The notes: generated by a model not told the origin, from the sequence alone. DNA of 64,000 nt from a virus (IMGVR_UViG_3300042988_001550), one strand, 5' to 3'; shown: positions 6,946 to 64,000, counted from the first letter of the stretch. Made by a program: numbers and translations.

Positions 6946-6957
6946 CCTGGCATCCGT

Positions 6958-7680: not shown

Positions 7681-8456
7681 AGTTTAACAGTCTTGAGGAC
7701 GTCGAAGTCGGGGTTAAGACCGTCAGGTGTATACCCTCTCGGATTGCTGAGAAGGGTTGTCTGACCGATAGTAATGTGAACATTTTCATGTTGGTGGCCA
7801 AATATCCAGAGGTCGGCCTTCTCAATGAGTGAGTCACAATCAGTGCAGAAATAAGCCCAGGAGACCTCGTCGCGACGGTTACGCCATTTTGGGTGAATCG
7901 CCGTCTCGTGGGGTAGGTGATGCGTTACCACAACAGTCTTGCCGTCGAAAGGTTTGGCTAGCTCGTCGGCCAACCAATCTACGCAGAGCGTGTGAATGTT
8001 GTAGATGTCGACCGGTAACAAACGCCGACCCTCATTTTTGATGAGAGCGTAGTCGTTCATTCTGTTACCCGCAACCATCATCTTGAGAGGGTTGCCGCCG
8101 TCAAAGTCCGTCCACATCGTTGTACCGAGGAAGCGCACTCCGTCGATTACAACAGCTTCCCTCTCCAGAACATGGACGTTTGGGAGGTCGCTTAGCAGCT
8201 CCTTGATATTGTCCAGCAGGTTATTCATGTCGTGGTAGTAGAACTCGTGGTTCCCTAAAACGTAAACAACATGGCGGACGATGGACGCCCATGTCCTGAT
8301 GGTTTCAACTGCTTTAGTGCCGACATGGACATCCCCAGCCAGCACTAGCACGTCCACATTGGATAGATCCGGATTAAAGAGAATCGGGTATCCGTAGGAG
8401 TCAAAGAAACCCTCATCAAACTCCAGATGAAGGTCGCTCATCGCTCGTATCTTCAA
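7677..8456 (-). CDS. calcineurin-like metallophosphoesterase
   Basis: Ordered motifs SDLHLEF, LAGDVH, GNHEFY, THHLP and GHQHEN. Confidence 0.75.
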   Translation of the reverse strand: MKIRAMSDLHLEFDEGFFDSYGYPILFNPDLSNVDVLVLAGDVHVGTKAVETIRTWASIVRHVVYVLGNHEFYYHDMNNLLDNIKELLSDLPNVHVLEREAVVIDGVRFLGTTMWTDFDGGNPLKMMVAGNRMNDYALIKNEGRRLLPVDIYNIHTLCVDWLADELAKPFDGKTVVVTHHLPHETAIHPKWRNRRDEVSWAYFCTDCDSLIEKADLWIFGHQHENVHITIGQTTLLSNPRGYTPDGLNPDFDVLKTVKL

Positions 8457-24898: not shown

Positions 24899-24975
24899 TG
24901 GTCGGGGCGGCCGGATTCCAACCGACGACCTGCTGGACCCAAACCAGCCGCTCTAGCAAACTGAGCTACGCCCCG
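24899..24975 (-). tRNA. tRNA-Pro(UGG)
   Basis: CGGGGCG/CGCCCCG, GCTC/GAGC, GCTGG/CCAGC with loop TTTGGGT, GTCGG-TTGGAAT-CCGGC, and an encoded CCA. Confidence 0.75.
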
Positions 24976-24979
24976 AAGA

Positions 24980-25064
24980 TGGTAGGGATGACGGGAGTCG
25001 AACCCGTACGCCTTTCGACACAGCGGCCTAAACGCTGCGCGTCTGCCAATTCCGCCACATCCCC
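24980..25064 (-). tRNA. tRNA-Leu(UAG), long variable arm
   Basis: GGGGATG/CATCCCT (G.U), CAGCG/CGCTG with loop TTTAGGC, a 13-nt variable arm, ACGGG-TTCGACT-CCCGT, and CCA. Confidence 0.7.
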
Positions 25065-40800: not shown

Positions 40801-43800
40801 AATGGTATTGCAGAGACGCTGGGATCTGAGCTAACAGAAGGTTCGCCTGAGCTAAGTGTTGCAGGTGATCGAGTAGCAGATGAGTTCTACACTGGAACCA
40901 GTTATCTTGGTGCGGATTACAGAACGCAGTCTTCCACAAACACGCTGCTCTACGATCCCGCCTCGTTCACTGTGGGACCGGCAGCATTCGCCCTTACTAA
41001 CGAACCCGACCTAGTTCCTAAGGACTCGCAGTACTACCTGACAGCTTCCAGAAACAGCATGATTGATGCTGGATCTGCCTGGGCAACTCTATACTCAGGT
41101 CAGCACGGTCTGGAAGGATTACTCCTCAAATCGACTCTAGTCACTGGGGTAGCCTCTTATGAGGTGTACCCCGTGTTCGGGTACCGCCCCAACGGGTTTG
41201 CTATCGAGTTCAACGGACAGCGCCGCCTGAACGTACCGTGGGTCTATCTAGCTGACGACTTCACGTTCCGCACATGGATGACGGTTCCCAGCGGCTCAAT
41301 TGGCGCTGGAGAAAGCCCGCAACTTCTAGCTCTTGGAAGCACAGGATTCCGTATCGGTCTTGGGTATGTGTCTGCATCGACATATGAAGTGGCGATCTAC
41401 CCGAGCCCGTCGCAGAGAATTGTTGTTGCTGAGTTCTCACCAGACACTGAGACATTCCTTTCAGTGACCTATCGCGAAGATGACAGTCAGTTTGAGACGA
41501 TCATCGCTGGTGGTAGGAACGGAAGCGGCACTACTTCTACGGATGCCGGCGTCACCGCGTCGTTCACTGGAACGCTGTTCCTTGGTGCTGGAAATACTGA
41601 TCCGATTCAAGACTCTGGTATCACCGCCACACTCGACGAGACAGTTCTGCTAGGCAGAGCAGCGTCTCCTGAGGAAGTTGCGTCGTGGTACTCTACCCGA
41701 TATTGGAGCGGTCCGCTGGGCGTCAGCGCTAACGGCTCTCCGCTATCCGAGCTGGGCGCGCAAATCGTCCTTCACTTCGATAAGGAAGACGCCCTTAGCA
41801 CCACGGTGTTCGATTACTCTGGAGAAGGTAATAACCTCTCGAAAGAGTCTGACGATGTTGATGACCTGGACAGCGACTGGTTCGTTTCTGGAATCATCGA
41901 CACGCCGCTGCCGTCTGAGAAAGACTACTTCCAGCTCGATCGTCGCGGCTACTACATCACGGATGGTAGAAGAGTAACCATTCCTGTCCTCGACGAGGAT
42001 GGTGTTCCGACTACGGTGGAATACACCGCCCGTTCTGGTGAAATCGCATACACCGCTCCCAATGTCGCTTACTACTTCACAGGGAGTAGCTGGCTCAAGG
42101 TAGATGCTTTCCCGTCCACCAGCTCGTCAGCCGTCAGCGTTAACCGCTGGACCGGACCTTATCAAGGGTTCTTTGAGAACGGGTACATTGACCCCAACAA
42201 CCAGGTTCGTTCTAGCGTCATACGGTTTGATGCAACACTCGGAACTGATCCCGCGTTCAAGTTCTCAGCTAAAAACAATGCCGCTATCAGCTCGATCAAG
42301 ATCGGCGGTACCGAGATCCTCGAAGTAGACACGAAAGCCGACATCGTCCAGCAACGTTGGGAAGTCGGTAACTCTTTCGTTCTTGCGGAAGCTGGTGCAG
42401 ATAACCAATCACCGAGAGAACAGTCGCTCTCCAGATACGTGTCGTCTACCTTCACCACAACTGGTGGAGTGGTTAGATCTTATCCAGCGTTCTCGCAGCT
42501 ATACACAGAGGTAAGCCCACCGCTAGAAGCGTCAGGCGACCTCTTCACGAAGCGGGTGAAGCTCGGCGTTGTAAACAACAATCACATTCTAGAGATAGAA
42601 TCATCGCTACAGCCGTATGCCTCGCTAAACAACGCTTACGTCGGCTGGGTCTATCAGCTGAGCCTATCTGATGCGCTGACCGAGGCGTTCTCTTTCCAGG
42701 TAGGGACTCAAGGTGCTGGTTACGGCCAGCCGATCTATCTTGGTAAGGCTGAGGAATCGGATAATCAGATCGAGACCACCTTTAAGGGCGGGGTCATTCT
42801 GACGAGTGTAGACAGAACGCTGGCAATCGGTATCTACCACCACGGACCGAGCAGACCGAACTACCGTATCGCCACTGATATCGAGTATCTGAGTACCCCG
42901 AACAGGGTTCTGCTGTCGTCTACGGAATACATCAGAAACTCTGGCGGCGTGGCCGGAGAGATGAGCAAGAAGCGCTATATCTGCGCCGGTAACTTTGTCG
43001 AAGTGGTATCGGCATTCGCGGAGCTGTATGCGCACCTGGAAGGACTTCCGGCTCCGACCTTCTCCTTCCCGGCGATAGCAATGCAGGCGGCTATTACCTC
43101 GCCGCTTAACCAGAACATCCTACTGAACCAGACAGTTGATTTTAACGTTCGCGCCATCAGTGCCTACGGAACGATCGACGCGCTGTACGCGGAGGATGTG
43201 ACAGCGACGGTTACCGACATTACAACCGGAACAGCTACGGACTACGTGGAGACGTTCGTTAACGGCGTGGCCGACTTCTCGGCTATACCGATGACGCAGA
43301 ACGGCTCTAAGTCAGTGTTCCTCACCAGCGGTTCGCTGCAGCCGGCTACTCTTTCACTAGATGTGTGGTGGCCTAAGCCTATCATCACTAGTATCACGCC
43401 CACTACAAGTGTTACCGGTACAGCGGACACTACCGTTCGGATCTTTGGCTCGCAGTTCTACTCTCCTCACGTAGCACAATGGCGGGCACCTGGATCAAAT
43501 ACATGGGTTGACCAAACAACCACATACGTCAGTCCTGGAGAGGTGCAGTTCTCTCTGCTGACCAGCATGAAGACGGTCGGTCGTCACGTGATTCGTGTAT
43601 CGACGCCGAGACTGCTGGGCGCTATATCTAACTCGGTGTTCCTACAGGTAACTGCGTCCGCGCCGGTATGGTCTCCGCACTACCTGTCGATCGACACCTA
43701 TCCGTCGACAACACTAATCAATTCCAGTAATCAGTACGCTGTGTCTCTAAGACACAGCCCGTCTGGTAACCTGGCCACAATCAACAGCGGTCGCGTAACA

Positions 43801-46800
43801 CTGACTGCTCAGCCGACTGGCTCGTTTACTGGAACCATGAGTGCGTGGGCATCGCCGGTTAACGGTGTCGCTCTGATTAACGGCTCAGTCAACAAGGCAG
43901 GTATCTACGACCTCCGCGCGGTCCACTCGCCACTGTCCGGTGGAGCAGCTAGAACGGACGTAGAGTATGCTGTACTTACTGTACAGAACCCGGACCCGGT
44001 TCTTAGCCGAGTGTCTCCGCCGTGGTTCTCACCTGAAGCGGCGTCTTTTGACGAGTTCCGGCTATTCGGCGCGAACTTTATCCAGAACGACAGTGTTGTA
44101 GAGTTCTGCCTTACTTCGCCGAACCACCCGAGCTTCTCTGGTTGGACAACCAGAACGACGGTATTTGATACCAGCTCTCAGATAATCGGTTATCTCACGA
44201 CCGGTGACATTGCATACGACTCGACAGAGAGATACAGATATGCGAGAGTGTCTACACGATACTCTGTGTCTGGCCTACCTTCAGCGTCAGTAAGCATTCT
44301 CGTGTCCCCCACCGCCGGAGTTCCGCCGGTCCCGACAGTATACAGCCCGTTCTTCCTAGGTGAAGTCGTCGAAGTCGGGTCGCTCACGTACAACGATCAG
44401 TTCGTTAACGAGACGGTCGACGTTCTAGTTCCTGTACTACACTCACTCATTCCGCTAGTATCGGCGTCAACAGCAACCGGATTGGTTAGAGTGGTGGCTT
44501 CCCCAGAGCTTCCTGAGTACACTGGCTCAGGCTCGGATAGCGCTGTTCCGCAAGTCGGCAACCAGATCGCCTTCCTATCTCCTCAGATATCGTCGTACGG
44601 TAGATATCGTCTATCCGCGACATACTCCCCCGGCGTCGGTGAGACAGCGGTTGTCGGTTCAGCCAGTGATTACTTCAACGTCTATCTAAGACCCGCCACG
44701 ATTAGCCGCGTGTCCCCGGTCATAACGAGCCCGCTCGGAACGCAGACGATCACGATCACTGGCGCAGGCTTCAACGTATCGAACAAGGTTTACCTGACGA
44801 ACGCCACCGCTAGCACGACTGTAACAGCTAGCCCGTCCTTCACGTCGGCTCAGAGCATTTCGTTCCAGCTATCCCCAGGAAACTACACAGGACAGCAGGA
44901 TCTTCTGCAGATCCAGGTAGGTACGCCGACTTGGAGCTACGCACTATCAAACAGTAGTTACCTAACACTGTATCCGACACCTAGCACCTACACGGTGTCT
45001 CTAAACCCAGACGTAAACAATCCGCCGCCTATCCTGACACAGACGATCGTTGTCGGAAACACGCTACCGACGATCGACGCACATGTCTTCGATAACGCCG
45101 GACAGCCTGCAACGTCTGTAACTGGCTTAGTGTCCCTCGCCATCACCAAGACCACAGGCGGTGTGGCTTACAGCGGAGCAGATTCGCCGGTCAACGGCTA
45201 CGCCTCCTTCTCTGGTATCACCGCTCCGGCGGCAGGTATCTACAACATCTCGGCTGAGTTCTCTCCGACCGGCGGAACTCCTGTAACAGCAGACGAGATC
45301 CAGTTCTACTCGCTAAACCCCGTCGGATACGCTACAAGCGTAAGCCCATCCACATTCGCGGCCAACGGTGTTCCGAGAACGATTAAGGTGTACGGCCAGA
45401 ACTTCCTTTCTGGAAGCACCGCTGTCCTGGTTAACGGAAGCGAGTCGGCTGCGTTTGTGCAGACAGTACACAGCCCGAAGGCGCTCACAGCAACACTAAG
45501 TACGTTCGCTTCTAACAGCGTCGGTACTCATCAGATCTCTATCAAGACGCAGTTTGCTGCTCCTGGCGGGCAGCCAGCTTATAGTGGTGTTTCTGTTCCT
45601 CTAACCATCACAGCTAACCCGTCGGCTCCAGCCGCTGGATCTGAGGAGAACCTGCCTGCTACCATCATCGTCTCTCCTCTAGGATATGCGAGAGTACGTT
45701 CACCTTCCGGACCAATCACGCCGATCTGGACACCTGTAGCTGTTCCAGGACAGGATCGCGGTAGCGATAGCCTGTGGCAGGCGTGCATCAATCGCGTTGG
45801 CCAGTACAACACGGCCAATCCTCCCGGTACTATCCAACCTACAGCGACCAGCCCCGGCGCTGCGGACGTGGTTGAAGTCACAGCCGGTATGTACTCTCAC
45901 GTCAAGTTCTACACCGGGAATGCAAGCGGTCCCCACGAGACAACAAACGCACAGGCTAGAGGACTCAGCCTAAGACAGCCCCTTATCATTCGTGCACGCA
46001 AGACTAACGGTGTTGCCGAGCCTGTAGTTATTCGCCCCTTCTCGTTCATCGACCCAGCAGACACGACATACGCGTGCATAACCTTCCAGGCAACACCAAC
46101 GTACAAGCCTGGCTTCATGCACTTCTACGATATTGGTTTCATGGGACGTCACTACGGTGTCGAGCATGTTCGATCAACGAACATGACCGGCTCGGTGGAC
46201 TACTACTATGAAGATCATCAGTTCCATCGTTGCCGTATCCTCGGCACGTATGACCATCGAACAATAGCGTTGGCGCCGTATAGGGTGACTCAATCAACCC
46301 AAAGTAATGTCCTCACTAATCAGAAGCACTGGAATTACCTAGGTCAGGAACTAATTGCTCCATCAACTAGCCCGTCCAATAGCTTCTTATGGAGAATGGA
46401 TATTCCAGCAGACCAGGTACATCGGGCGCTACATAGAAACCGTTATTGCGTCAGTGTGCCGGTCACCAGTCCGGCAGATCTGAATCCATTGCCCACCTGC
46501 CTAGGGGTTGTAATCGGCGCGGCACCGTCTAGTGAGTTTGTTTACACATCTAGCCAGAGCGTCTCGACTAGCAAGCTAATTCACCTCGGCCTTGATAAGG
46601 GAACCGGCGGCTCACCGCACTATGTTGAGCTGACATTGATGGCAGACGGTGAAAACGGCGGCGCAGGTGTAGCGAATTCCCGGTCAAATGTCTCTGTATG
46701 GAGCGGTTCTTGGCAGCTTCTCACTGTTACAAACGGAGTGGTTCCTGTCGGCACCGTTTACGACAATACTAAGTACCCCTTGACTGGTAGAGTTATTGGC

Positions 46801-49110
46801 GGCACGGCACTCTACCCGAACATCATCTTCCGCAATCCAGGGTACTACCACTTTACCGCTAGATTGCTGAACGGAGCTGGCGTAGAGATTCCGCTACCTA
46901 GTCCTGCCAAGAACATCTATGTTCAGGCAACCACACCGGGTATCTCTCAAAAAGAGACGTACATTGATAACAACTTCGTTGCAGTAAACCCCAACAACGC
47001 GGCTATTACATACGCTAAGACGTCTCTACCAAAACTAAAGGTAGTGAATAATCTCACAAGCATCTTCACCTTGCCTGTGAACGCTCTCTGTAACTACAAT
47101 CTGCTTCTAGCAGAGCAGCAGCCGGTTCAGGCTCCGATGATCACCGGTACGCTCGACTATACGATGGATTTGACCAGCTATAACGCTGGTTGGAGATGGG
47201 CGGACTCCTTCGGAACGCTCCTGTCCGGTAATCCAAGAGTATTGACCGGACAGATGATCAATGGTTTCGGTAACGTCTACTCGTCGCCGTCGCCGTCTGT
47301 AGCTGTCTATGGTAGACAAGGTCTGCGCTTAAAGTACACCGGTACGTCGACCACTTTCCTAAGTAACGCTGTAGCCGTCGTTGTCACTAAGCGGTCGGTA
47401 ACTCCTGCAGAAACAACACTAACAGTACCCACAAGCAACACACCGCCGCTAAAATACACGTTGGAATTTGTTGCTGGCGGATCAAGCACGACATACCAGA
47501 ACACTTCCGCGTCTGGTGCGTGGTGGCACTCAGTCAACGGTGGATACTCTGGATCGACTAACCTCGGCAGAGGTCGTGTCTTCTGTGCCAGCTGGCCAGG
47601 TAGCCCGAACCACCCGAACTACGATCCTGACACAACCGGCGTATTCTATCCCCATCCAGACGACTGCCCTTATCTGACGTACCCAGAAGGGCGCTCGATG
47701 AAACAGGGTAACCAGGTTTACACTGGCCAGGATTACCTGTGGGATGGTGGTTTCGTTGGCCACATCGCCGAAGAGCACGGGTTCTACTTCCACAACAACC
47801 GTAACGTGACAGTTAGAAATACACTGATCAAGTACACCGGTCGTACTGGAATCCAGAGTCTCAACTGGTGGCAAGATAACAAGCCAAGTGATACTGTCGG
47901 GGACCTTAACCACCCGAATAACCGAGAGAACGTGTCGCAGTTCGGCTACTCTCTGGTGTTCGAGAAGAACACGTTGAAGGATTGTGGGATTACCACACCG
48001 ACACGTCAGCTCACGGTAGCTGACTACGCGGGCAGTGTATACATCCGTAACAACAAGATGTTGTTAGGATTCAACGGCAAGCTGCGCCACTGGGAATCGA
48101 TCAATGCTGGCGCAATCGTCGTGTACGATGGTAGAGCCTTCGTACAGGCATTAGGCCTGCCTAATGATCACTGGAACATCTATCCAGATCACTTCATGGT
48201 CGATCAGTTCGATAACCCTGCGGTTGACTGGCAACACATTAAATTGGCCAATCTAGAGTACACACCAATAGGGTCGAGAGACTACTATCCTGGTGGAGCT
48301 GTGAACCCTTACATAGGATTGAGCCCGTCGCACCCGTACTACTACCTACGCAGACTGTTTGAAAACTATCCCAGACTCGGGTTTGCTTCAGGACAGCAGT
48401 ATCAGGTCGTGCAGAACGGTCTGGTAAACTGGACACCCAACCACCCGTATTACAACCGGGCGTACGGTCACCCTAGATTCTCTGCCGCGCCGTTCACTAA
48501 GTCGATCACCTTAACAAAGCCCCCGCCCAGTGGAACCGGTCCAAGCGTCAGCGTGACGTTAGGATCTCCGACAGTAGGGTTCTATGGTGGTACTCAAAAG
48601 GTTGGTGCCGTCTACGTAAGTGACAACATCATCTGGGGAAACAGCTGGATCTCCGGCGCTAGACCCCTAGCAACCGCACTATCAGGAGACCCGTACTTCA
48701 GCGAGTTTGTTCATGCTGACTGGGTTTCTCCTGGTATACGCCCACAAGGCATGATCGCCCTGGATACGACGGGTGGATATACTGGAACAGTGTTGCAGGA
48801 AGGAACAGGATTCCAGCACCCGCTGGTGGCCTTCGGAGGAATGCGTAACCTCATCCTTAACCACAACTCGATCAAGCCTGGCAACACAGTAGTCGGTAAG
48901 ATTGACCTGAATCCGAAACAGGCCACTGGCAACGACCTGTACTATCCTCCCATCCTATCAGTAACCGGCTCGCACAACATCTTTGCGACTGCTCCTGGTA
49001 AGTCCGCCGGATTCCGTTACTACTTCACGGACACGACAAATCCGATTGTAGCTGCCCTACGCAGCCAGCTTTTGAGCAGCGTCTCTCCCAGCCCTAACCT
49101 GTATTTCTGA
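37816..49110 (+). CDS. giant tail-fiber/adhesin-like protein, 3764 aa, with LamG-like, repeated IPT/TIG-like and beta-helix-like segments
   Basis: One 11.3 kb ORF. A LamG-like segment near nt 41260..41600 (TGTLFLGAGNT). At least four IPT/TIG-like units between nt 43380 and 45470 (PIITSITPTTSVTGTADTTVRIFGSQF, LSRVSPPWFSPEAASFDEFRLFGANF, ATISRVSPVITSPLGTQTITITGAGF, VSPSTFAANGVPRTIKVYGQNF). A beta-helix-like NNRNVTVRNTLIKYTG segment near nt 47560..48900. Confidence 0.8.
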   Translation: MSTNKFDPTPLFDALPSFWKDYYKDKDVLSTVYEALLRIQEIDYNRLFTVDDSKTLSSVPVLTRYPVVYDQLNDWETTGQKHAHTKISVAFDPTLVTPFDATTQYYRIRFPDTIFKYDSQLYLDGRAIPASFYTKVFEPYYSGEFTDGETVGTTVYLHAQRLAQLFAKPLSTEDYELITEDPDQFDNYGNVSEDPEAFADYGNLGWSAIEAVTTATMYAFKSVLPLKAVTDGSTSSFELDLSPQTLSTDESTVVVESVDVTGRVAVSYDSAYTTVTPVGSFSWQTGQTFKVTWQDGTIQQVSAATGLPIYLTKLDPIASVQLLTNFQIYPSVTTVDINGVSVGNNQLYPGTIVRVVDSVGTQSAVITDATNRVTFERPIDTNTAKVFFHGIDLLSVDLTETALDFNTPPNKSVTLRIDGVISNDHQHVTETFDIEVITRNIVLANTPATGAMTGNESEFLPCRVFKDGQLLLAGTDYSLVGSILIFEEDLLPPCKVSVYYEISGEVAHTHYHQVFQNLASNNRLTIDREVSADDTFELYYDSLLNTHQSQLDLVGGRSITLDNVFPENITIVFHGIQRGWAYRHVIADRMDARYGYRGHVKSIGFIQDGLITASATLSSQDGDIAVVEENGDTVLYSNTKVIDAWMFDVDVDEQLISNVWGALVDNVEASTDDQAVRITSLLAAARSPAFVANMENFGSIVLGSRFLEEDGVSLGIRTDDNGDRVVSIRPTDTQSDNFDVQLIDGAEVRITDGSVLPRLFAVNKLLSVIDKDLSSVPWLAFMAESLSSDFRFAKRLDAKTSKKLTSDNGQFDQVTGVLTDYSINFYEEEVRVGDQIRLEFAIFDFTLPDNPLEERDPVVANVLEVINPNQIRIKSPEIVDIAGFGENSYGSGPFGGGIYTPSLRSYTVWTRVTRKLDSFYKLDTALASAQAFVSGEDVQLTNEELAKLLRHHVFVLKLNWDRMVSAEQLATLQQLIRTLKPAKTTALVYTELEDGNGIAETLGSELTEGSPELSVAGDRVADEFYTGTSYLGADYRTQSSTNTLLYDPASFTVGPAAFALTNEPDLVPKDSQYYLTASRNSMIDAGSAWATLYSGQHGLEGLLLKSTLVTGVASYEVYPVFGYRPNGFAIEFNGQRRLNVPWVYLADDFTFRTWMTVPSGSIGAGESPQLLALGSTGFRIGLGYVSASTYEVAIYPSPSQRIVVAEFSPDTETFLSVTYREDDSQFETIIAGGRNGSGTTSTDAGVTASFTGTLFLGAGNTDPIQDSGITATLDETVLLGRAASPEEVASWYSTRYWSGPLGVSANGSPLSELGAQIVLHFDKEDALSTTVFDYSGEGNNLSKESDDVDDLDSDWFVSGIIDTPLPSEKDYFQLDRRGYYITDGRRVTIPVLDEDGVPTTVEYTARSGEIAYTAPNVAYYFTGSSWLKVDAFPSTSSSAVSVNRWTGPYQGFFENGYIDPNNQVRSSVIRFDATLGTDPAFKFSAKNNAAISSIKIGGTEILEVDTKADIVQQRWEVGNSFVLAEAGADNQSPREQSLSRYVSSTFTTTGGVVRSYPAFSQLYTEVSPPLEASGDLFTKRVKLGVVNNNHILEIESSLQPYASLNNAYVGWVYQLSLSDALTEAFSFQVGTQGAGYGQPIYLGKAEESDNQIETTFKGGVILTSVDRTLAIGIYHHGPSRPNYRIATDIEYLSTPNRVLLSSTEYIRNSGGVAGEMSKKRYICAGNFVEVVSAFAELYAHLEGLPAPTFSFPAIAMQAAITSPLNQNILLNQTVDFNVRAISAYGTIDALYAEDVTATVTDITTGTATDYVETFVNGVADFSAIPMTQNGSKSVFLTSGSLQPATLSLDVWWPKPIITSITPTTSVTGTADTTVRIFGSQFYSPHVAQWRAPGSNTWVDQTTTYVSPGEVQFSLLTSMKTVGRHVIRVSTPRLLGAISNSVFLQVTASAPVWSPHYLSIDTYPSTTLINSSNQYAVSLRHSPSGNLATINSGRVTLTAQPTGSFTGTMSAWASPVNGVALINGSVNKAGIYDLRAVHSPLSGGAARTDVEYAVLTVQNPDPVLSRVSPPWFSPEAASFDEFRLFGANFIQNDSVVEFCLTSPNHPSFSGWTTRTTVFDTSSQIIGYLTTGDIAYDSTERYRYARVSTRYSVSGLPSASVSILVSPTAGVPPVPTVYSPFFLGEVVEVGSLTYNDQFVNETVDVLVPVLHSLIPLVSASTATGLVRVVASPELPEYTGSGSDSAVPQVGNQIAFLSPQISSYGRYRLSATYSPGVGETAVVGSASDYFNVYLRPATISRVSPVITSPLGTQTITITGAGFNVSNKVYLTNATASTTVTASPSFTSAQSISFQLSPGNYTGQQDLLQIQVGTPTWSYALSNSSYLTLYPTPSTYTVSLNPDVNNPPPILTQTIVVGNTLPTIDAHVFDNAGQPATSVTGLVSLAITKTTGGVAYSGADSPVNGYASFSGITAPAAGIYNISAEFSPTGGTPVTADEIQFYSLNPVGYATSVSPSTFAANGVPRTIKVYGQNFLSGSTAVLVNGSESAAFVQTVHSPKALTATLSTFASNSVGTHQISIKTQFAAPGGQPAYSGVSVPLTITANPSAPAAGSEENLPATIIVSPLGYARVRSPSGPITPIWTPVAVPGQDRGSDSLWQACINRVGQYNTANPPGTIQPTATSPGAADVVEVTAGMYSHVKFYTGNASGPHETTNAQARGLSLRQPLIIRARKTNGVAEPVVIRPFSFIDPADTTYACITFQATPTYKPGFMHFYDIGFMGRHYGVEHVRSTNMTGSVDYYYEDHQFHRCRILGTYDHRTIALAPYRVTQSTQSNVLTNQKHWNYLGQELIAPSTSPSNSFLWRMDIPADQVHRALHRNRYCVSVPVTSPADLNPLPTCLGVVIGAAPSSEFVYTSSQSVSTSKLIHLGLDKGTGGSPHYVELTLMADGENGGAGVANSRSNVSVWSGSWQLLTVTNGVVPVGTVYDNTKYPLTGRVIGGTALYPNIIFRNPGYYHFTARLLNGAGVEIPLPSPAKNIYVQATTPGISQKETYIDNNFVAVNPNNAAITYAKTSLPKLKVVNNLTSIFTLPVNALCNYNLLLAEQQPVQAPMITGTLDYTMDLTSYNAGWRWADSFGTLLSGNPRVLTGQMINGFGNVYSSPSPSVAVYGRQGLRLKYTGTSTTFLSNAVAVVVTKRSVTPAETTLTVPTSNTPPLKYTLEFVAGGSSTTYQNTSASGAWWHSVNGGYSGSTNLGRGRVFCASWPGSPNHPNYDPDTTGVFYPHPDDCPYLTYPEGRSMKQGNQVYTGQDYLWDGGFVGHIAEEHGFYFHNNRNVTVRNTLIKYTGRTGIQSLNWWQDNKPSDTVGDLNHPNNRENVSQFGYSLVFEKNTLKDCGITTPTRQLTVADYAGSVYIRNNKMLLGFNGKLRHWESINAGAIVVYDGRAFVQALGLPNDHWNIYPDHFMVDQFDNPAVDWQHIKLANLEYTPIGSRDYYPGGAVNPYIGLSPSHPYYYLRRLFENYPRLGFASGQQYQVVQNGLVNWTPNHPYYNRAYGHPRFSAAPFTKSITLTKPPPSGTGPSVSVTLGSPTVGFYGGTQKVGAVYVSDNIIWGNSWISGARPLATALSGDPYFSEFVHADWVSPGIRPQGMIALDTTGGYTGTVLQEGTGFQHPLVAFGGMRNLILNHNSIKPGNTVVGKIDLNPKQATGNDLYYPPILSVTGSHNIFATAPGKSAGFRYYFTDTTNPIVAALRSQLLSSVSPSPNLYF

Positions 49111-57570: not shown

Positions 57571-58375
57571 TAACCCCTTCATTACCTGCCCACTTTGAAC
57601 TTTCGTTCGACTACATTACACTAGTCTAGTGGGATGGACTTTCTCTTCACCCTCGTCTTTACGTTAGGGTGCGCCGTGTAAAGTCTCTACACTTGCCCGG
57701 TTCTTTTAGGAACCTGCTAGCTCGGGATTGCCATTTTAAAGGTTTCCCCGACTTAGCGGCGTCCACTTTATAGGTTTCCCTAGAAAGGTCCGTAATCATG
57801 ACTTACTGCTGCGCTGAGTGTCAAACAACGTTCTCTCGAAAGGACAAAGCACGTTCTGTAAACGCATTCTGTTCTCGATCTTGTGCCGCCAGCTATAACA
57901 ACAGGAAGAAACCTAAGAGGGCGCGAAGCCGTCGGGATTCTAGTTGTGTTAGTTGCGGAAAAAGTACCCATAACCGTAGATTCTGCGATTTGGTGTGCTT
58001 CCACAGACTTAGGGCCGATACAAAGATCGCCAACTGGTTGTCAGGCCACGAGACGCGCGTCACCTCTCATCGAAGAGACGCTATCCGCTCCTGGCTGTTG
58101 AAGGACCAGCTAGAGAAGTGTGCCTTGTGCGCCCAATCAGGAAATTGGAACGGCAAGCCACTGCTTTTTGTTTTGGACCATATCAATGGAGACCACACCG
58201 ATAACAGCAGAACCAATCTACGCCTTATCTGTCATAACTGTGACTCACAGTTACCTACGTACAAAGGCAGAAATCGCGGTTTCGGGCGATACATCAGAAG
58301 ACAACGATACGCAGACGGTAAATCGTTCTAACAAATGAAGAGCTCTGCCAATTGAGCTACATCGGCAATTGAAAG

Positions 58376-59064: not shown

Positions 59065-59249
59065 ATCACAAGAAAAGGCGAGCAAGGTGTCCTGTAAGGG
59101 TTGTTTTACAAAGGTAACCCTCACAGAGCGGCTCGCCAGGACCCAAGTCTGCTAAACGTGGGTGTAACGATGTAAGCAAATTCGCCTAGGAACGATGGAT
59201 ATCTGCGAGATCGCGGAAGGTAACGTTCATAGTTCGGCTTACATCTATA

Positions 59250-59446: not shown

Positions 59447-59792
59447 TGGTGGACCTGGTCGGAGTCGAACCGACGTGTTTGAACTGTCGTTAGTATTCTT
59501 CTACACGCTTGTCCGATTTTTGTTCCACTGTCCAGGCATTAACCGGCAACTATCCCGGCAGTGGTTCCGCAGTATACGCCCTAGGTCGAAGCGGGTCTCT
59601 CCAGGGTGTCCTAATAGTTGCAGCCACTCCCTTATTAGGAATCAAGGGTGGCTGGGATTAGCGGAGTCTAGGCCGCCATCGCGAGCTGAGGTTCAGCATT
59701 TTAGTTTTCCCAAGAAGGATTAACGAGCTTACTTGAGATGCTCGGCGTGCTTCACTACATTTGACTGAACAAATCGAAACCAGTTCAGGCCC
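59447..59792 (-). ncRNA. ssrA: tmRNA (ssrA-like), 346 nt, tag ORF 59668..59697
   Basis: 5' GGGCCTG pairs with 3' CAGGTCC-A-CCA and includes the G3.U70 Ala identity pair. The T-arm is GTCGG-TTCGACT-CCGAC. GUGAAGCACGCCGAGCA parallels E. coli GGUGCAUGCCGAGG. The tag frame is aaaactaaaat-GCT GAA CCT CAG CTC GCG ATG GCG GCC TAG, giving (A)AEPQLAMAA. Confidence 0.7.
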
Positions 59793-60060: not shown

Positions 60061-60173
60061 TGGTCGGCCCGGAGGGACTCGAACCCCCAACCCTCCGCAT
60101 ATCAGACGGCGCCCAGTTGTTACACCAGGGGCGGATCATAAATCCACTGCTCTACCATTGAGACTACGGGCCG
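60061..60173 (-). tRNA. tRNA-like gene with anticodon UAU (Ile-type) and a ~41-nt insertion between the anticodon stem and T-arm
   Basis: CGGCCCG/CGGGCCG, GTGGA/TCCGC with loop TTTATGA, GGGGG-TTCGAGT-CCCTC, A73, and CCA. It is 113 nt long. Confidence 0.4.
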
Positions 60174-60202: not shown

Positions 60203-60257
60203 CCTTAAAGGAGAGATGTTTTTGATCCAATGAGAGTGGATCAATTTCTTATGACAC
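60203..60257 (+). promoter_or_regulatory. Composite element GATCCAAT-N6-GGATCA-ATTTCTTATGACA upstream (minus-strand sense) of the tRNA-like gene
   Basis: Same composite architecture as the block at 26135..26173. Confidence 0.45.
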
Positions 60258-60646: not shown

Positions 60647-61038
60647 TACTCACCTATCTTCAGGTGGCTAGACGACGTATCATATGTGATGGTGGCTTGG
60701 TTAACTGTAAGGACGGCGTCCCCGTTCCTAAGGTTGATGACAACCGAACCGTTCCCTCCCTCATTATTCCACCAATCTGGACCACCGTGGGCGACTTCCA
60801 TGGCGGCGTCCTTCAAGCTTCTATAAGCGTCACGTGCTGATTGAGCTGATACCTGTTTTTCAACAAGGATAGCTGTTAACCAGTCTGGGACGATCCTTTC
60901 AAAGTTCTGAGCCGGATGATGCGGGTGCGTTACATATGAGTCGTCAATATCACCGCTATCTCCACTCCCACTGAAAATGACCTCCATCGACTCAAAGCCT
61001 AGTTTCCTCAGAAGTCTTCTTGCTCTTTTTGTTTCCAC
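60646..61038 (-). CDS. hypothetical protein, 130 aa, acidic
   Basis: First ORF downstream (on the minus strand) of the long non-coding stretch. Confidence 0.5.
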   Translation of the reverse strand: METKRARRLLRKLGFESMEVIFSGSGDSGDIDDSYVTHPHHPAQNFERIVPDWLTAILVEKQVSAQSARDAYRSLKDAAMEVAHGGPDWWNNEGGNGSVVINLRNGDAVLTVNQATITYDTSSSHLKIGE

Positions 61039-61376
61039 GTTTTCCTTAGTAAAAGAATGGGGTAGCTACTCCCCATCCAGTGTTGACTTGTATTCCCAGT
61101 CGGTCACGTTTCACCGAACGGTCAACAGCAGAGCTGGTCGTCTTTGTTTTGTGTCGTCAGCCCTAGGTGTGAGACCGCTACAGTCACCTAGAACTTATCG
61201 TGCCGTGAGCTCACAGCACGAGACCATGGATTTCTCCCGCGCTAGTACTTAAGGTCGGTTTAGCGTCCACTAGCAGGACGTGTTAGTGCCCCCTACAGAT
61301 TGCTCTGTAGGGGGCGACCGTTAACCCTTTAAGCAGTTCAGCTGCTCATAGATCTTATGCCACAAATCCGCTGGAT

Positions 61377-62963
61377 TTAGTCCTTGGCGAAATTGCTGAT
61401 GAGAGCCGGAGTCTCGGTATCGTACCCGACGATGTCCAGCTGGTGCGGGTCTTGAGGATCCGCGATGGTGAAGCCGGTAGCCGTCATGCCGACGACGATG
61501 GCCTTGGCGTTGGGGCGGTTGCGTTCCTTGCGGAATCGATTCAGCGCCTGGTACGGCTGCACGCCGCCGTTCGTCTCATTGTCAGTCATGATGACGAAGC
61601 AATCCACGTCACGCTTCTGGGAGGTCGCGTACGAGTAGGCCGCCGAGCAGTCGGTTGATCCGAAGTTGTTCATGACAACCTTGTGCATAGCAGTCGCCAG
61701 GGTATCGTTTGCATGGATACCCAGGTCCTTGATCGTGCTGGCGAAGCCAACGATCTCGTGGTAGGGCTCACGTCGAGCCAAAACCATTGCCAGGCACGCG
61801 GTACCCATCGCCGGGGTGAACCCAGGGAAGACGGAGCCCGCCGAGCCGTACCCACCACCAGCCATCGACCCCGAAACGTCAAGCGCCAGCAAGAAGTTCT
61901 TGTTGGACGGTTCGACGTTGTTGAAGGCGTGGTAGAACAGCGCTTCCGTGACATCGGTGATGGTGCTCACCGGGGTCCAAGACAGGCTGCCCTTGATGCC
62001 ATGACCCTGACGGTACGTGTAGTAGGCGGCCAGCGCCTGCATCGGATGGATACGCGACTTTTTGATCGCTTCCTTATCCGACAGCTTCTGCTGGACCAAC
62101 TTCGTAGCCGAGCTGAGAGGCTTCAGCAAGCCGTTCGCCGTCATGCGCGCCAGGTTGCGGGTTAGCGCATTCAGCGGCATGTTCGGCAGCAAGGCTTCCC
62201 AGATCTCCGGATTCCCCAGCTGCTCCGTCGGAATCATTTCCCAGGTGATCGACTTGTTGCGTCGAATCACAGCGAGGATACCATTCTTGTCCGCCTTGCT
62301 GATTTCCTCCAGATCCGCGACGATCTGAGGAATACCTTCAGCAATCACATTCTTGCACGCCCACTGGAACAGTGCCTGCTGTTCCTTGAGAAGCGGCTTC
62401 GGGTGAGCCATGCGCAGCACGTCACGATGCGTCCACCCGTTGCGGTTGCGGTACTTGGCCATCTGATAGGCGAGGTCGTCGCCCTTCTTGTTGATGTACC
62501 AATCACCAACCGTCGTGCAGAGCATACGCCCCCAGCCGCGCATGTTCTGGACCTCTTCCGTGAACTGGAACAGGTGGGTACCCGTCCGGATCACCTGATA
62601 GAAGACGGCCTTGGCAGCCACCTTCGTCGCGAGGTCCTTGCTGCTCATCGCCATTGCCAAAGCAAAAATTGCGGGGTCTTGCTTCGGCGCACGCCCACCG
62701 ACGCTGATGTCGCGGATGACACCAACCGTCTTGGGACCGTCAGCATTGAGGCAGCGGGTCACCACCTCAGCATTGTCCACAGTCAGCTTGCGCTCGGACA
62801 CGTAGTACGTGCCGCCGCTCGACCCGAGAATCAGAAATCGTTCCAACCGCTTCCAGTCGTCAGTCTGGAACACATACCCACCGGTGTTGTTCAGTACCTG
62901 GTCTGAACGTGTCTTCTCGTGCACCGGTGCAGGAGTGTTCAGGATCTTGCCGTAGTTCTTCAC
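61377..62963 (-). CDS. rsr: Ro60/Rsr ortholog (TROVE domain plus C-terminal vWA/MIDAS)
   Basis: N-terminus NNTGGYVFQTDDWKRLERFLILGSSGGTYYVSERKLTVDNAEVV matches Ro60. The C-terminus has LALDVSGSM...TDNETNG (MIDAS). GTG start follows an AGGAGGG ribosome-binding site. Confidence 0.8.
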   Translation of the reverse strand: MKNYGKILNTPAPVHEKTRSDQVLNNTGGYVFQTDDWKRLERFLILGSSGGTYYVSERKLTVDNAEVVTRCLNADGPKTVGVIRDISVGGRAPKQDPAIFALAMAMSSKDLATKVAAKAVFYQVIRTGTHLFQFTEEVQNMRGWGRMLCTTVGDWYINKKGDDLAYQMAKYRNRNGWTHRDVLRMAHPKPLLKEQQALFQWACKNVIAEGIPQIVADLEEISKADKNGILAVIRRNKSITWEMIPTEQLGNPEIWEALLPNMPLNALTRNLARMTANGLLKPLSSATKLVQQKLSDKEAIKKSRIHPMQALAAYYTYRQGHGIKGSLSWTPVSTITDVTEALFYHAFNNVEPSNKNFLLALDVSGSMAGGGYGSAGSVFPGFTPAMGTACLAMVLARREPYHEIVGFASTIKDLGIHANDTLATAMHKVVMNNFGSTDCSAAYSYATSQKRDVDCFVIMTDNETNGGVQPYQALNRFRKERNRPNAKAIVVGMTATGFTIADPQDPHQLDIVGYDTETPALISNFAKD

Positions 62964-63007
62964 ATGCCCTCCTGTTGTTGGAAAAAAAAGAGCTAGAGCT
63001 CGAAAGT

Positions 63008-63016
63008 CTTATGACG
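63008..63016 (+). promoter_or_regulatory. CTTATGACG variant motif upstream of rsr
   Basis: Minus strand reads GTGGGGTGA-ttaagt-TCACCCCAC, TTTTTTT, AGCTCAAATATATCAGCAAACACGTCATAAGAC, 38 nt, AGGAGGG, GTG 62963. Confidence 0.45.
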
Positions 63017-63293
63017 TGTTTGCTGATATATTTGAGCTAAAAAAAGTGGGGTGAACTTAATCACCCCACAATCCGCCGCATAGACACTACCTAAAGTGCT
63101 CTCCGGGCCTAGTTGTCTTTTAGACGGTGGCCACTTACGAGACGGGACCGTAGTCCAGCAGGTCGTTGTCGTATTGAAGCGATATAGGGGTGAGCAAATT
63201 TGTGTGCGAGGGTGTTTTCTTGACCAGATAACCCTCACACTTCGGCTCACTTTTTCTATTTGTACAAGGCACTGGCGAAGCAAACCAGCTCAG

Positions 63294-63466
63294 CTAATAT
63301 ATCTGCAGAGCTCTTAAAGTTAGTTACCTCCAGTTCGTGACCAAAGGTCACGTGGTAATTTACACCTCCGAAGGAGGTGCACTTTTACCGTCGGTAAAGA
63401 GTGTTACGAGTGACCGAAGGTCAGAACTGGGGTAACTAACTTTAAGAGCTCTGCAGATATATTAGC
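63294..63466. repeat. 173-nt inverted-repeat element: 36-bp perfect stem plus a 6-bp extension, enclosing four short hairpins
   Basis: 63294..63329 (GCTAATATATCTGCAGAGCTCTTAAAGTTAGTTACC) is exactly complementary to 63431..63466. CAGTTC pairs with GAACTG after a 2/1-nt bulge. The inner loop contains GTGACCaaaGGTCAC, CACCTCCgaaGGAGGTG, TACCGtcGGTA and TGACCgaaGGTCA. Confidence 0.85.
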
Positions 63467-64000
63467 AGGGTGGTCCTTTGCGCATACATGTAGCTGTTCG
63501 GAAACGGGGGCGTATCGTCCGCGTTATGCCTCTGACTCATGCGCAGTAAATCAGAACATCTGCCGTTGTTTCGAATGATGCCCCAGCTAGGGCAGTGAAT
63601 GGGATCGGCACTTAGTGGAACGATGCAAGCGATTACCAGAGGTAGGTGTAGAGCCGGTCGCGTGCTGAAGCGTAGTTTACGGAGCTTCAGTAGCGCCGGC
63701 TCGTAACCTACCGGGGGTAATCGCAGAGCACCATTGTAGTACTGGTAGTTAGGTGAGCCTCAGCAACGTATCGTTGCCGTATGTCTATTCAGGCAGTACT
63801 GGTCCTAAATAAAGATCTGCCGATTTGTTCGATGGAAAAAGATGTGGCGGTGTTTCTGCGATCTTGCGTGAATCTGCCGCAGGATCTCCCTGCGTACCAT
63901 GCCGCACACACTGGGGCGCCAATGTCGTGGAAGACTTACCGGGGCCACCGAGAGGACAGCAACTGGCGCTAGCTGGCTGATGTCCTGTAGGTCCTGATCA

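What the first reader, a model, noticed from the sequence alone, without database searches (positions are those of the whole stretch)
61377..63800. Phage-encoded Ro60 (TROVE-vWA) ortholog beside ~800 nt of hairpin-dense non-coding DNA with a 36-bp perfect inverted repeat: candidate Y-RNA-like locus
ORF 61377..62963 carries the Ro60/Rsr N-terminal signature (GGYVFQTDDWKRLERFLILGSSGGTYY) and a C-terminal vWA MIDAS motif (DVSGSM...TDNETNG). Ro60 proteins work with non-coding Y RNAs that present a long terminal stem. In bacteria those RNAs are encoded next to rsr and often carry tRNA-like modules. Immediately 5' of rsr on its coding strand there is no convincing ORF from 62964 to about 63780; the track's 62993..63283 and 63096..63317 ORFs have no ribosome-binding site and sit on hairpins. 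That region contains (i) a terminator-like hairpin GTGGGGTGA/TCACCCCAC, (ii) the CTTATGACG promoter-like motif, and (iii) a 173-nt element (63294..63466) whose ends form a 36-bp perfect duplex plus 6 more base pairs after a small bulge, enclosing four short GNRA-like or tri-loop hairpins. A stem with a bulge and a structured internal module is the Y-RNA architecture. The perfect complementarity of the stem argues for strong selection or a recent origin.
Basis: partly seen in the sequence, partly recalled or inferred. Interest (0 to 1): 0.85.

Follow-up and report, generated by a model that had tools for sequence, protein, structure and literature searches.

The report
Phage Ro60 locus; hairpin not Y RNA

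Summary
ORF 61377-62963 (-) is a canonical Ro60 (TROVE + Ro60 vWA). About 1 kb upstream of it has no credible ORF. The inverted repeat 63293-63328 / 63431-63466 is 36/36 complementary, and it is the only long inverted repeat in the 64 kb.

I built a covariance model only from Ro60-adjacent hairpins of other contigs (stem, CGAA bulge, stem, UUAYC loop). It finds three hits in the whole window, all on the rsr strand:
- 63253-63187, E 1e-13, 224 nt upstream of rsr
- 59139-59075
- 59245-59169, with the previous one inside the tRNA cluster

The 174-nt inverted-repeat element is not hit, even with filters off. It has no Rfam Y_RNA, YrlA or sbRNA match, no CGAA bulge on the rsr strand and no tRNA-like module.

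The nearest relative (72% Ro60 identity) has a long hairpin with a similar layout but unrelated sequence at the same position, so the hairpin is maintained. Six other rsr loci have none. My best guess, at low confidence, is a co-transcribed double-stranded RNA processing hairpin inside a multi-RNA operon. A DNA-level role is not excluded. Phage Ro60 with Y-like RNAs is already published.

The parts
61377..62963 (-). rsr: Ro60 ortholog (TROVE ring + Ro60-type vWA/MIDAS), 528 aa
63007..63018 (-). rsr promoter: phage promoter motif (ACGT)CATAAGA.
   Evidence: All 12 CATAAGA copies in the window are on the - strand, several just after terminators. The motif precedes rsr in L001 and L002 too.
63039..63069 (-). 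Intrinsic terminator GTGGGGTGA-loop-TCACCCCAC + T7. It ends the upstream non-coding RNA transcription unit.
   Evidence: Four stem pairs (five sequence cells) keep pairing through changes on both sides in L001/L002.
63073..63182 (-). Conserved 3' domain of 'RNA C': a long closing stem and a three-way core (CUGCUGGACUACGGUCC..GUAAGUGGCCACCG..GGCCCGGAGAGCACUU)
   Evidence: Alignments A1 and A4 with L001 and L002. 18 of the 56 predicted pairs across the whole aligned stretch (Y-like hairpin, this domain and the terminator) show compensatory change. No Rfam match.
63187..63253 (-). Y-like RNA hairpin: stem GUGAGC/GCUCAC, 5' bulge CGAA (GCCGAAG fits GNCGAAN0-1G), stem GUGUGAGGGU/ACCCUCGCAC, UUAUC... 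apical loop, A-rich 3' bulge ACAAAUUU. This is the probable Ro60-binding RNA.
   Evidence: Model R1, built from non-window loci only, scores it 58.7 bits, E 9.5e-13, full length.
63293..63466 (.). The flagged element: 36-bp perfect AT-rich inverted repeat (63293-63328 / 63431-63466) enclosing 102 nt with four triloop mini-hairpins. With outward pairing it spans about 63270-63490. The functional strand is undetermined.
   Evidence: Not hit by Rfam Y families or R1. A counterpart of similar layout is at L001 998-1207.
63606..63824 (-). 'Domain B': closed structured domain (AUCGGCA.../...UGCCGAU) containing a long interrupted hairpin, 63724-63629
   Evidence: The same stack of four helices is built from different sequences in L001 754-860. 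CGGCAGAT occurs 3 times in 63558-63879.
61051..61359 (-). 'RNA D': independent small-RNA gene directly after the rsr stop codon. Promoter TTGTGGCATAAGA (61353-61365), terminator stem 61078-61055 + U run. Conserved core GUCCUGCUAGYGGAC..CUUAAGURCUAGCGCGG.
   Evidence: (z = -5.65). The core is conserved even in L003, whose Ro60 is 55% identical.
59075..59139 (-). Second Y-like hairpin, inside the tRNA cluster
   Evidence: R1 47.2 bits, E 8.5e-10
59169..59245 (-). Third Y-like hairpin, next to tRNA-Glu
   Evidence: R1 37.5 bits, E 2.5e-7

Best explanation
The locus is a phage Ro60 / Y-RNA cassette of a known kind.

Shown, about 0.85 confidence: rsr has its own promoter. Directly upstream, on the same strand, lies a non-coding RNA transcription unit that ends at the terminator 63069-63046. 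Its last RNA starts with a 61-67-nt stem / CGAA-bulge / stem hairpin (63253-63187). This hairpin belongs to a family found next to Ro60 genes in unrelated phages and bacteria, and it is the probable Ro60 ligand. Two more copies sit among the tRNA genes.

Inferred, about 0.35 confidence: the 36-bp inverted-repeat element is a different thing. It is a long hairpin specific to this lineage, lying between two structured RNA domains. In this window I found no promoter motif or terminator between it and the downstream Y-like hairpin; in the closest relative (L001) there is no promoter motif anywhere between the unit's start and the rsr promoter. I therefore infer that it is co-transcribed on the rsr strand. 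There it would form a perfect AU-rich double-stranded RNA of at least 26-36 bp. The most likely role is a processing or structural hairpin (RNase III-type cleavage) that separates the upstream RNAs from the downstream Y-like RNA and releases a capped hairpin of roughly 130-150 nt. It is not itself a Y RNA.
For: Ro60 identity.

Promoter and terminator map:
- All 12 CATAAGA motifs in the window are on the - strand.
- The same motif occurs only on the rsr strand in L001-L003. L001 has none between position 275 (just before its YrlA-like RNA) and 1473 (the rsr promoter), so about 1.15 kb is one unit ending in the conserved terminator.

Y-like family:
- The motif GAGCCG..GGGTTAYC lies on the rsr strand beside rsr in L001, L003, L005, L006 and L008/L009.
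- In the 11-sequence non-window alignment, 90.3% of cells pair, 12 of 16 pairs change on both sides, and slid controls give 37-48%.
- Model R1 finds only three hits in the 64 kb, on both strands searched, and all three are on the rsr strand.
- R1 also hits just upstream of rsr in the cultured phages Cashline, FuzzBuster and Colt.
- R1 matches the stretch around an Rfam YrlA tRNA-like hit in L008 (R1 6871-7004; YrlA 6910-6976).
- Short modules reach or approach the Rfam nematode small-RNA model RF01656.
- The CGAA / GNCGAAN0-1G motif and stem-bulge-stem layout are the published criteria (PMC4201824; PMC12135203).

Inverted-repeat element:
- A long hairpin at the same position in L001 (66-nt arms, 86% complementary, 26 bp perfect at the base, four triloop mini-hairpins) has unalignable arm sequence but homologous flanks, TGCGCAAA and CTTCGnnAGTGCC.
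- The neighbouring domains B and C keep their helices through compensatory change, so the whole region behaves as RNA.
- There is no U tract after the hairpin on either strand.
Against: - There are no transcript data.
- Only two genomes carry the hairpin, so covariation cannot be tested.
- All four transition-type mismatches in the main stems (three in L001, one in the window) are A.C on the rsr strand, which is G.U on the opposite strand. The opposite strand also folds better in both genomes: -130.1 vs -122.5 and -138.9 vs -124.0 kcal/mol. This is the reverse of what selection on the rsr-strand RNA predicts, and it fits an opposite-strand or DNA-level role.
- The arms are AT-rich (about 33% and 30% GC in a 52% GC genome) and contain nested 8-bp palindromes, as DNA-binding or unwinding sites would.
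- Perfect arms can be kept by template switching without any RNA function.
- RNase III cleavage and the host are unknown.
Confidence: 0.5

Rival explanations
1. One reading: the 174-nt inverted-repeat element is itself a Y-like RNA bound by the phage Ro60. The long terminal stem would be the Ro60 site and the mini-hairpin cluster the effector module.
For: It lies 330 nt from rsr within an RNA-gene cluster. Published bacterial loci hold a second Y RNA that is 'a long hairpin' (PMC4201824). The conserved flanks at the base of the stem contain CGAAG, but only on the strand opposite rsr: GGCGAAG at 63274-63280 (+), and AUCGAAG at the matching place in L001.
Against: - No hit to Rfam Y_RNA, YrlA or sbRNA at E <= 10, nor to R1 with filters off.
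- No CGAA on the rsr strand near the base.
- GNCGAAG occurs about once per kb, 64 times in the window.
- The element is 174-221 nt, against 80-130 nt for Y RNAs.
- The duplex is a perfect 36 bp with no bulged helix.
- There is no T arm or tRNA-like module.
- Long inverted repeats are absent from six other rsr loci that do have R1-type hairpins.
- A genuine family member sits 40 nt away.
Confidence: 0.12
2. DNA-level element. The palindrome would work as double- or single-stranded DNA: a replication origin or unwinding element, a single-strand priming signal, a cruciform, or a dimeric protein binding site. Alternatively it is a quasi-palindrome kept perfect by template switching with little function.
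For: - The outer arms are AT-rich in both genomes.
- The arm holds nested 8-bp palindromes, TCTGCAGA and AGAGCTCT.
- All interior hairpins are perfect short palindromes with 3-nt loops. On the + strand several are C-GAA-G or C-GCA-G, which I recall as very stable DNA mini-hairpins. GCGAAGC sits at the base at 63275-63281.
- The mismatch pattern shows no preference for G.U on the transcribed strand.
- The 8-mer CGGCAGAT occurs 3 times within 320 nt next to it, with 2 copies (CGGCAGATT) at the matching places in L001.
- Cumulative GC skew flattens around 57-64 kb.
Against: - It sits inside what looks like one non-coding RNA transcription unit.
- The neighbouring domains B and C show RNA-type compensatory change.
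- One CGGCAGAT copy is explained as the closing stem of RNA domain B.
- No iterons or direct repeats were found around the palindrome itself.
- There are no target-site duplications and it is single copy, so it is not a transposon-like element.
- The skew signal is weak and the window ends at 64 kb.
Confidence: 0.25
3. The functional molecule is an RNA made from the + strand, antisense to rsr. Its 5' end would lie near GGCACUGGCGAAG and it would have a giant stem.
For: The + strand fold is more stable in both genomes, and all four transition-type mismatches become G.U on that strand. The flanks GGCACU..CGAAG (5') and CCUU(G)UUUGCGC (3') are conserved between the window and L001.
Against: - No promoter-like or terminator-like site on the + strand.
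- All 12 phage promoter motifs are on the - strand.
- Published Y RNAs are on the rsr strand (PMC4201824).
- Four out of four mismatches is only p about 0.06-0.12.
Confidence: 0.08

Closest known systems
Bacterial and phage Y RNAs (YrlA/YrlB, Yrn1/Yrn2; Rfam RF02553) encoded beside rsr (Chen et al. 2014, PMC4201824)
   Same: The RNAs are encoded within a few kb of Ro60 on the same strand, with several per locus. [quoted passage not shown] Some copies carry a permuted tRNA-like domain: L001 287-419 (RF02553, 36.8 bits), L003 and L008. The paper already counted 22 phages.
   Different: The three copies in this window are minimal hairpins of 61-77 nt with no tRNA-like domain. They score below Rfam thresholds and needed a purpose-built model. 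Two are interleaved with tRNA genes. The 36-bp inverted-repeat element matches none of the defining features.
Thermus phage phiLo phiRo60 with Yrl1/Yrl2 (NAR 2025, PMC12135203; PDB 9KOP, 9L5Y)
   Same: A phage Ro60 has short stem / CGAA-bulge / stem hairpins encoded just upstream. Binding was shown there experimentally, and host PNPase is recruited.
   Different: The window's Ro60 is far closer to canonical RO60 and Rsr (E 1e-97 to 1e-104) than to phiRo60 (E 4e-8). As far as I read, that paper does not describe a giant hairpin.
Nematode small RNAs ceN72-3/ceN74-2 (Rfam RF01656). From my own knowledge these are stem-bulge RNAs regarded as Y-RNA homologues.
   Same: Relatives' short modules reach or approach this model: L003 5035-5138 scores 39.2 bits against a cut-off of 38, and four L006 modules score 33-37 bits. 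The stem-bulge-stem layout is shared.
   Different: The window's own hairpins were not reported by Rfam at E <= 10. This is a resemblance of the Ro-binding helix, not membership.
RNase III processing stems in polycistronic stable-RNA precursors, such as rRNA operon stems and T7 early RNA sites (own knowledge)
   Same: A perfect duplex of more than 20 bp lies between separately functional RNAs of one transcript.
   Different: No cleavage data exist. The stem is longer and more perfect than classical sites and encloses a 102-nt hairpin cluster. This is analogy only.
Stable RNAs of unknown function and large ornate RNAs in phage tRNA regions, such as T4 species 1/2 RNAs, GOLLD and ROOL (own knowledge)
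   Same: These are structured non-coding RNAs embedded in phage tRNA or stable-RNA clusters.
   Different: There is no Rfam hit to any of them. This is a thematic resemblance only.

Membership tests
Y RNA / Y-RNA-like: the 36-bp inverted-repeat element 63293-63466 | Encoded close to Ro60 on the same strand | tested here: inconclusive
   It lies 330 nt from rsr. The element is palindromic, so the strand is undetermined. The only promoter motifs are on the rsr strand, but the fold and mismatch pattern favour the other strand.
Y RNA / Y-RNA-like: the 36-bp inverted-repeat element 63293-63466 | 5'-3' closing stem interrupted by a bulge carrying CGAA / GNCGAAN0-1G (PMC4201824, PMC12135203) | tested here: not met
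   There is no CGAA near the base on the rsr strand. GGCGAAG occurs only on the opposite strand, where the fold predicts it paired. The duplex is 36 bp without a bulge.
Y RNA / Y-RNA-like: the 36-bp inverted-repeat element 63293-63466 | Match to curated or family covariance models (Rfam Y_RNA, YrlA RF02553, RF01656; model R1) | tested here: not met
   None at E <= 10. R1 with filters off reports nothing in 63293-63466.
Y RNA / Y-RNA-like: the 36-bp inverted-repeat element 63293-63466 | Size 80-130 nt, with a large internal loop or tRNA-like module | tested here: not met
   It spans 174-221 nt. Neither ARAGORN nor Rfam finds a tRNA or T-arm signal in it.
Y RNA / Y-RNA-like: the 36-bp inverted-repeat element 63293-63466 | Bound by Ro60 | not testable with these tools
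   This needs immunoprecipitation or gel shift.
Y-RNA-like hairpin family: 63253-63187 (and 59139-59075, 59245-59169) | Same strand as rsr, and adjacent to rsr or in the same stable-RNA cluster | tested here: met
   All three R1 hits are on the - strand. The first ends 224 nt before the rsr start codon.
Y-RNA-like hairpin family: 63253-63187 (and 59139-59075, 59245-59169) | Stem / CGAA bulge / stem with a GNCGAAN0-1G motif | tested here: met
   GUGAGC|CGAA|GUGUGAGGGU ... ACCCUCGCAC|ACAAAUUU|GCUCAC, containing GCCGAAG. The copy at 59245-59169 also carries GCCGAA, but the copy at 59139-59075 has CGCU in place of CGAA.
Y-RNA-like hairpin family: 63253-63187 (and 59139-59075, 59245-59169) | Homology with covarying helices to Ro60-adjacent RNAs elsewhere | tested here: met
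   The model was built without window sequences. It scores the three hairpins at E 9.5e-13, 8.5e-10 and 2.5e-7. The same model matches the stretch around an Rfam YrlA hit in L008 and hits upstream of rsr in three cultured phages.
Y-RNA-like hairpin family: 63253-63187 (and 59139-59075, 59245-59169) | Bound by Ro60; tethers an effector such as PNPase | not testable with these tools
   Binding was shown only for the phiLo Yrl RNAs (PMC12135203).
RNase III-type processing hairpin | Uninterrupted duplex of at least about 20 bp inside a longer transcript | tested here: inconclusive
   The duplex length is met: 36 bp in the window and 26 bp perfect at the base in L001. Co-transcription is inferred only from the promoter and terminator map. 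Cleavage cannot be tested here.
Intrinsic terminator | GC-rich hairpin followed by a U tract | tested here: not met
   No T run follows the inverted repeat on either strand, and the terminator scan does not report it.
Miniature transposable element | Multiple copies and target-site duplications | tested here: not met
   It is single copy in 64 kb, and there are no flanking direct repeats.

The most novel reading that the evidence does not exclude
The roughly 1 kb upstream of rsr is one multi-domain non-coding RNA unit. Within it sits a giant hairpin: 26-36 bp of perfect AU-rich duplex capped by four triloop mini-hairpins. Its position and layout are kept between two phages, but not its sequence. 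On this reading the hairpin is a new class of phage structured RNA, or a single-stranded-DNA element, that works with the Ro60 / Y-RNA system. It might be a double-stranded RNA substrate, decoy or scaffold rather than a mere spacer.
Probability: 0.15. Interest if true: 0.6.

Novelty: new member of a known kind. Interest (0 to 1): 0.35.

Why it matters
Phage Ro60 with adjacent Y-like RNAs is already established, by bioinformatics in 2014 and by biochemistry and cryo-EM for phage phiLo in 2025. The core of the finding is therefore a new instance, not a new phenomenon.

Three things are useful here:
- A compact covariance model recognises minimal Y-like hairpins beside Ro60 genes across very different phages and bacteria, where Rfam thresholds miss them.
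- In this phage lineage, Y-like hairpins are interleaved with tRNA genes and a tmRNA gene, and are co-transcribed with other conserved structured RNAs. This points to shared processing.
- The giant hairpin is a well-defined unexplained element that a single strand-specific RNA-seq experiment could classify.

Tried and rejected
- Searching GenBank phages with the locus by megablast and blastn found no match. tblastn found only Ro60 proteins at 42.5% identity or less.
- Looking for relatives in IMG/VR and JGI metagenomes led nowhere. I tried the Ro60 protein and three conserved RNA patterns. There were no true hits, and the single IMG/VR hit (L004) was a chance match.
- Trying to see beyond the window end failed. 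The look-up with the window's own Ro60 returned only a 2.5-kb identical contig. The 63-aa ORF at 63781-63972 is not on record.
- The Rfam hit of the inverted repeat to plant MIR2670 (41.7 bits against a cut-off of 117) reflects only a long hairpin, so I dismissed it. The weak YrlA hit at 24950-25008 lies across two adjacent tRNA genes, and I take it to be tRNA cross-talk.
- My first idea that the interior hairpins carry cUUCGg tetraloops, which would favour the rsr strand, was wrong. In register they are 3-nt UUC loops.
- An automatic helix-assignment script mis-paired several modules. The first MAFFT alignments were out of register. Alignment A7 replaced them.
- Terminator, transposon-like element and coding readings of the inverted repeat were rejected.
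Full report
**Observation**

The minus-strand ORF 61377-62963 encodes a 528-aa protein with the quoted Ro60 signatures. Pfam gives TROVE (E 6.8e-41) and the Ro60-specific vWA domain (E 2.9e-47). The nearest solved structures are RO60 9nen, D. radiodurans Rsr and Xenopus Ro, at E 1e-97 to 1e-104.

The window is from a large phage. It has 14 tRNA genes called by ARAGORN plus a tmRNA gene, a group I intron, a baseplate wedge homologue, a helicase and a 3764-aa ORF. It has no nucleotide match among 50,697 GenBank phage records.

The inverted repeat is exactly as described. The arms 63293-63328 and 63431-63466 are 36/36 complementary and 102 nt apart. The fold z-score is -18.4. It is the only inverted repeat in the 64 kb with a perfect arm longer than 15 nt, and it is single copy. 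The interior holds four perfect mini-hairpins, all with 3-nt loops. A public short-read assembly identical to 60857-63328 stops at the inner end of one arm. ORFs in the upstream kilobase match no protein family.

**Transcription map**

- CATAAGA occurs 12 times in the window, always on the minus strand, several times right after a terminator.
- One copy precedes rsr (63007-63013). One lies directly after the rsr stop codon (61353-61359). One precedes an odd tRNA-like gene (60247-60253).
Its stem covaries in relatives.

So rsr has its own promoter. Everything from beyond the window end down to 63046 looks like one non-coding transcription unit. The 61359-61051 flank is a separate small-RNA gene with its own promoter and terminator.

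**Relatives**

Only three close relatives exist in the protein collection:
- L001, 72% Ro60 identity, with the same downstream gene order (DUF6878, DUF6915, tRNA-like, tmRNA)
- L002, 71%, a short contig
- L003, 55%, from a 123-kb contig

In L001 the promoter motif occurs at 240 and 275, then not again until the rsr promoter at 1473. Between them lie, in order:
- an Rfam YrlA-like permuted tRNA mimic (287-419, 36.8 bits, full length)
- a second such RNA (497-628)
- a structured domain B
- a long inverted repeat (998-1063 / 1142-1207, 66 nt, 86% complementary)
- a conserved RNA C ending in the terminator

L001's two tRNA-mimic RNAs (287-628) lie upstream of its domain B. In the window the 176 nt upstream of domain B (63825-64000) show no such RNA. 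If this phage has a counterpart, it lies beyond position 64000, where the window ends.

**The real Y-like RNAs**

All YrlA-like RNAs in L001 and L003 share one basal architecture:
- a closing stem ending in GAGC
- a 5' bulge CGNN
- a second stem ending in GGG
- an apical UUAYC
- an A-rich 3' bulge (..CAAYUUG)

The same architecture without the tRNA-like insert forms hairpins of about 60 nt in several places. There are tandem arrays beside rsr in unrelated contigs: L005 has three, L006 five, and L008/L009 three plus one YrlA-like. It also occurs at 63250-63190 in the window. The bulge sequence GCCGAAG fits the published GNCGAAN0-1G motif (PMC4201824). It also fits the 'CGAA bulge between two stems' criterion used for the experimentally bound Yrl1/Yrl2 of Thermus phage phiLo (PMC12135203).

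I aligned 11 modules from other loci only (A7). The two helices pair in 90.3% of cells, 12 of 16 pairs change on both sides, and slid controls give 37-48%. The covariance model R1 built from that alignment finds exactly three hits in the whole window on both strands, all on the rsr strand:
- 63253-63187, 58.7 bits, E 9.5e-13
- 59139-59075, E 8.5e-10
- 59245-59169, E 2.5e-7

R1 also recognises sequences it was not trained on:
- further L006 modules
- L003 5036-5138
- the stretch of L008 that contains the Rfam YrlA hit
- sites directly upstream of rsr in the cultured phages Cashline, FuzzBuster and Colt

Several short modules reach or approach Rfam RF01656, a nematode small-RNA family. From my own knowledge these are stem-bulge RNAs regarded as Y-RNA homologues.

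**The inverted-repeat element**

With filters off, R1 reports nothing in 63293-63466. Rfam reports only a meaningless long-hairpin match. The element has no CGAA bulge on the rsr strand and no tRNA-like module. It is larger than Y RNAs, and its perfect 36-bp duplex is unlike the bulged Y-RNA helix. Six other rsr loci that do carry R1-type hairpins have no comparable inverted repeat. It therefore fails membership of the Y-RNA family.

It is nevertheless maintained. L001 has a hairpin of similar overall size at the same position, 29 nt upstream of its Y-like hairpin, against 39 nt here. That hairpin has 26 bp perfect at its base, AT-rich outer arms and four triloop mini-hairpins. Its flanks are homologous (TGCGCAAA on one side, CTTCGnnAGTGCC on the other), but its arm sequence cannot be aligned with the window's.

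**Mechanism**

The element lies between domains B and C, which keep their helices through compensatory change. In L001 there is no promoter motif anywhere between the unit's start and the rsr promoter; in the window none lies between the element and the downstream Y-like hairpin. I therefore infer that it is transcribed on the rsr strand as part of a multi-RNA precursor. A perfect duplex of 26-36 bp in such a precursor would be an RNase III-type substrate. This rests on my own knowledge of the enzyme and was not tested. Cleavage would separate the upstream RNAs from the downstream Y-like RNA.

This is my best guess, at about 0.35, and there is evidence against it:
- All four transition-type mismatches in the two stems are A.C on the rsr strand and G.U on the other.
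- The opposite strand folds better in both genomes.
- The arms are AT-rich with nested palindromes.
- On the + strand several triloops are of the C-GNA-G type, which I recall as stable in DNA.

A DNA-level role (about 0.25), an antisense RNA (about 0.08) or a true Ro60 ligand of a new shape (about 0.12) remain open. With two genomes and no expression data the tools cannot decide.

**Comparison and novelty**

Phage Ro60 genes with adjacent Y-like RNAs were reported for 22 phages in 2014 (PMC4201824). Binding was demonstrated biochemically for phage phiLo in 2025 (PMC12135203). This locus is a new member of that kind.

The parts that add something are the minimal Y-like hairpin model, the interleaving of Y-like hairpins with tRNA genes, and the unexplained giant hairpin.

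**What led nowhere**

Scans of IMG/VR and JGI metagenomes with the protein and with conserved RNA patterns found no relatives. Attempts to read beyond the window end also failed.

Noticed in passing
window 60064-60173 (-); L001 4360-4459; L003 8940-9041: A conserved tRNA-like gene that ARAGORN does not call (Rfam tRNA 44.2 bits). It has acceptor, D and anticodon arms (loop UUUAUGA). In place of the variable region it has a mini-hairpin plus a second anticodon-like stem-loop (CGCCGUCUGAUAUGCGG). A T arm and an encoded ACCA follow. It covaries across three phages and has its own CATAAGA promoter at 60253.
   Followed up: partly
window 59075-59139 and 59169-59245 (-): Two further Y-like hairpins lie between tRNA-Glu and tRNA-His, next to the tmRNA gene. 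L001 5343-5418 has one at the matching place after its tRNA-Glu. Y-like RNAs appear to share a transcription unit with tRNA genes.
   Followed up: yes
window 61051-61359 (-); L001 about 3125-3460; L003 about 8032-8400: A small-RNA gene starts directly after the rsr stop codon, with its own promoter and terminator (fold z = -5.65). Its core GUCCUGCUAGYGGAC..AAACCG..CUUAAGURCUAGCGCGG is conserved down to 55% Ro60 identity. The P1 stem covaries (GUCC/GGAC against CUUC/GAAG), and its loop GCUAGY can pair with the downstream RCUAGC, which would give a pseudoknot. It has no Rfam or R1 match.
   Followed up: partly
window 63606-63824 (-); L001 about 660-880: A closed structured domain (AUCGGCA.../...UGCCGAU) contains a long interrupted hairpin (63724-63629). 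Its four stacked helices differ in sequence but not in layout between the two phages. CGGCAGAT occurs 3 times within 63558-63879, against 3 times in the other 63.7 kb.
   Followed up: partly
window 63073-63182 (-); L001 about 1310-1420; L002 about 85-195: A highly conserved 3' domain is fused to the Y-like hairpin in one terminated transcript. It has a GGAC-UACG-GUCC hairpin and a GUAAGUGGCCACCG core. It could be the effector-binding module of a tandem rather than nested Y RNA. It has no Rfam match.
   Followed up: partly
whole window; L001-L003: A lineage-specific promoter motif, about TGTGTCATAAGA followed by nnnnTGA. All 12 CATAAGA copies in the window are on the - strand. In the three related contigs it occurs only on the rsr strand.
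   Followed up: yes
L010 (Logan SRR35181315) = window 60857-63328: A public short-read contig identical to the window ends at the inner edge of the inverted-repeat arm. I read this (inference) as a perfect 36-bp repeat breaking the assembly graph. The same phage is therefore present in that run.
   Followed up: yes
window 57617-57809 (-), 59447-59792 (-), 37816-49110 (+): A group I intron (57.6 bits), a phage tmRNA with tag AEPQLAMAA (the same tag as in L001), and a 3764-aa ORF.
   Followed up: no
L006 4433-4888; L005 1115-1363; L008 6635-7004: Tandem arrays of three to five Y-like hairpins at spacings of about 75-105 nt sit beside rsr in unrelated contigs. L006 also encodes ribosomal protein S2 and EF-Ts, so it looks bacterial. 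L005 and L008 carry phage genes: L005 terminase subunits, L008 a weak head-tail connector match. Rfam scores the short hairpins just below its RF01656 cut-off, and the YrlA-like copy in L008 below the YrlA (RF02553) cut-off.
   Followed up: partly
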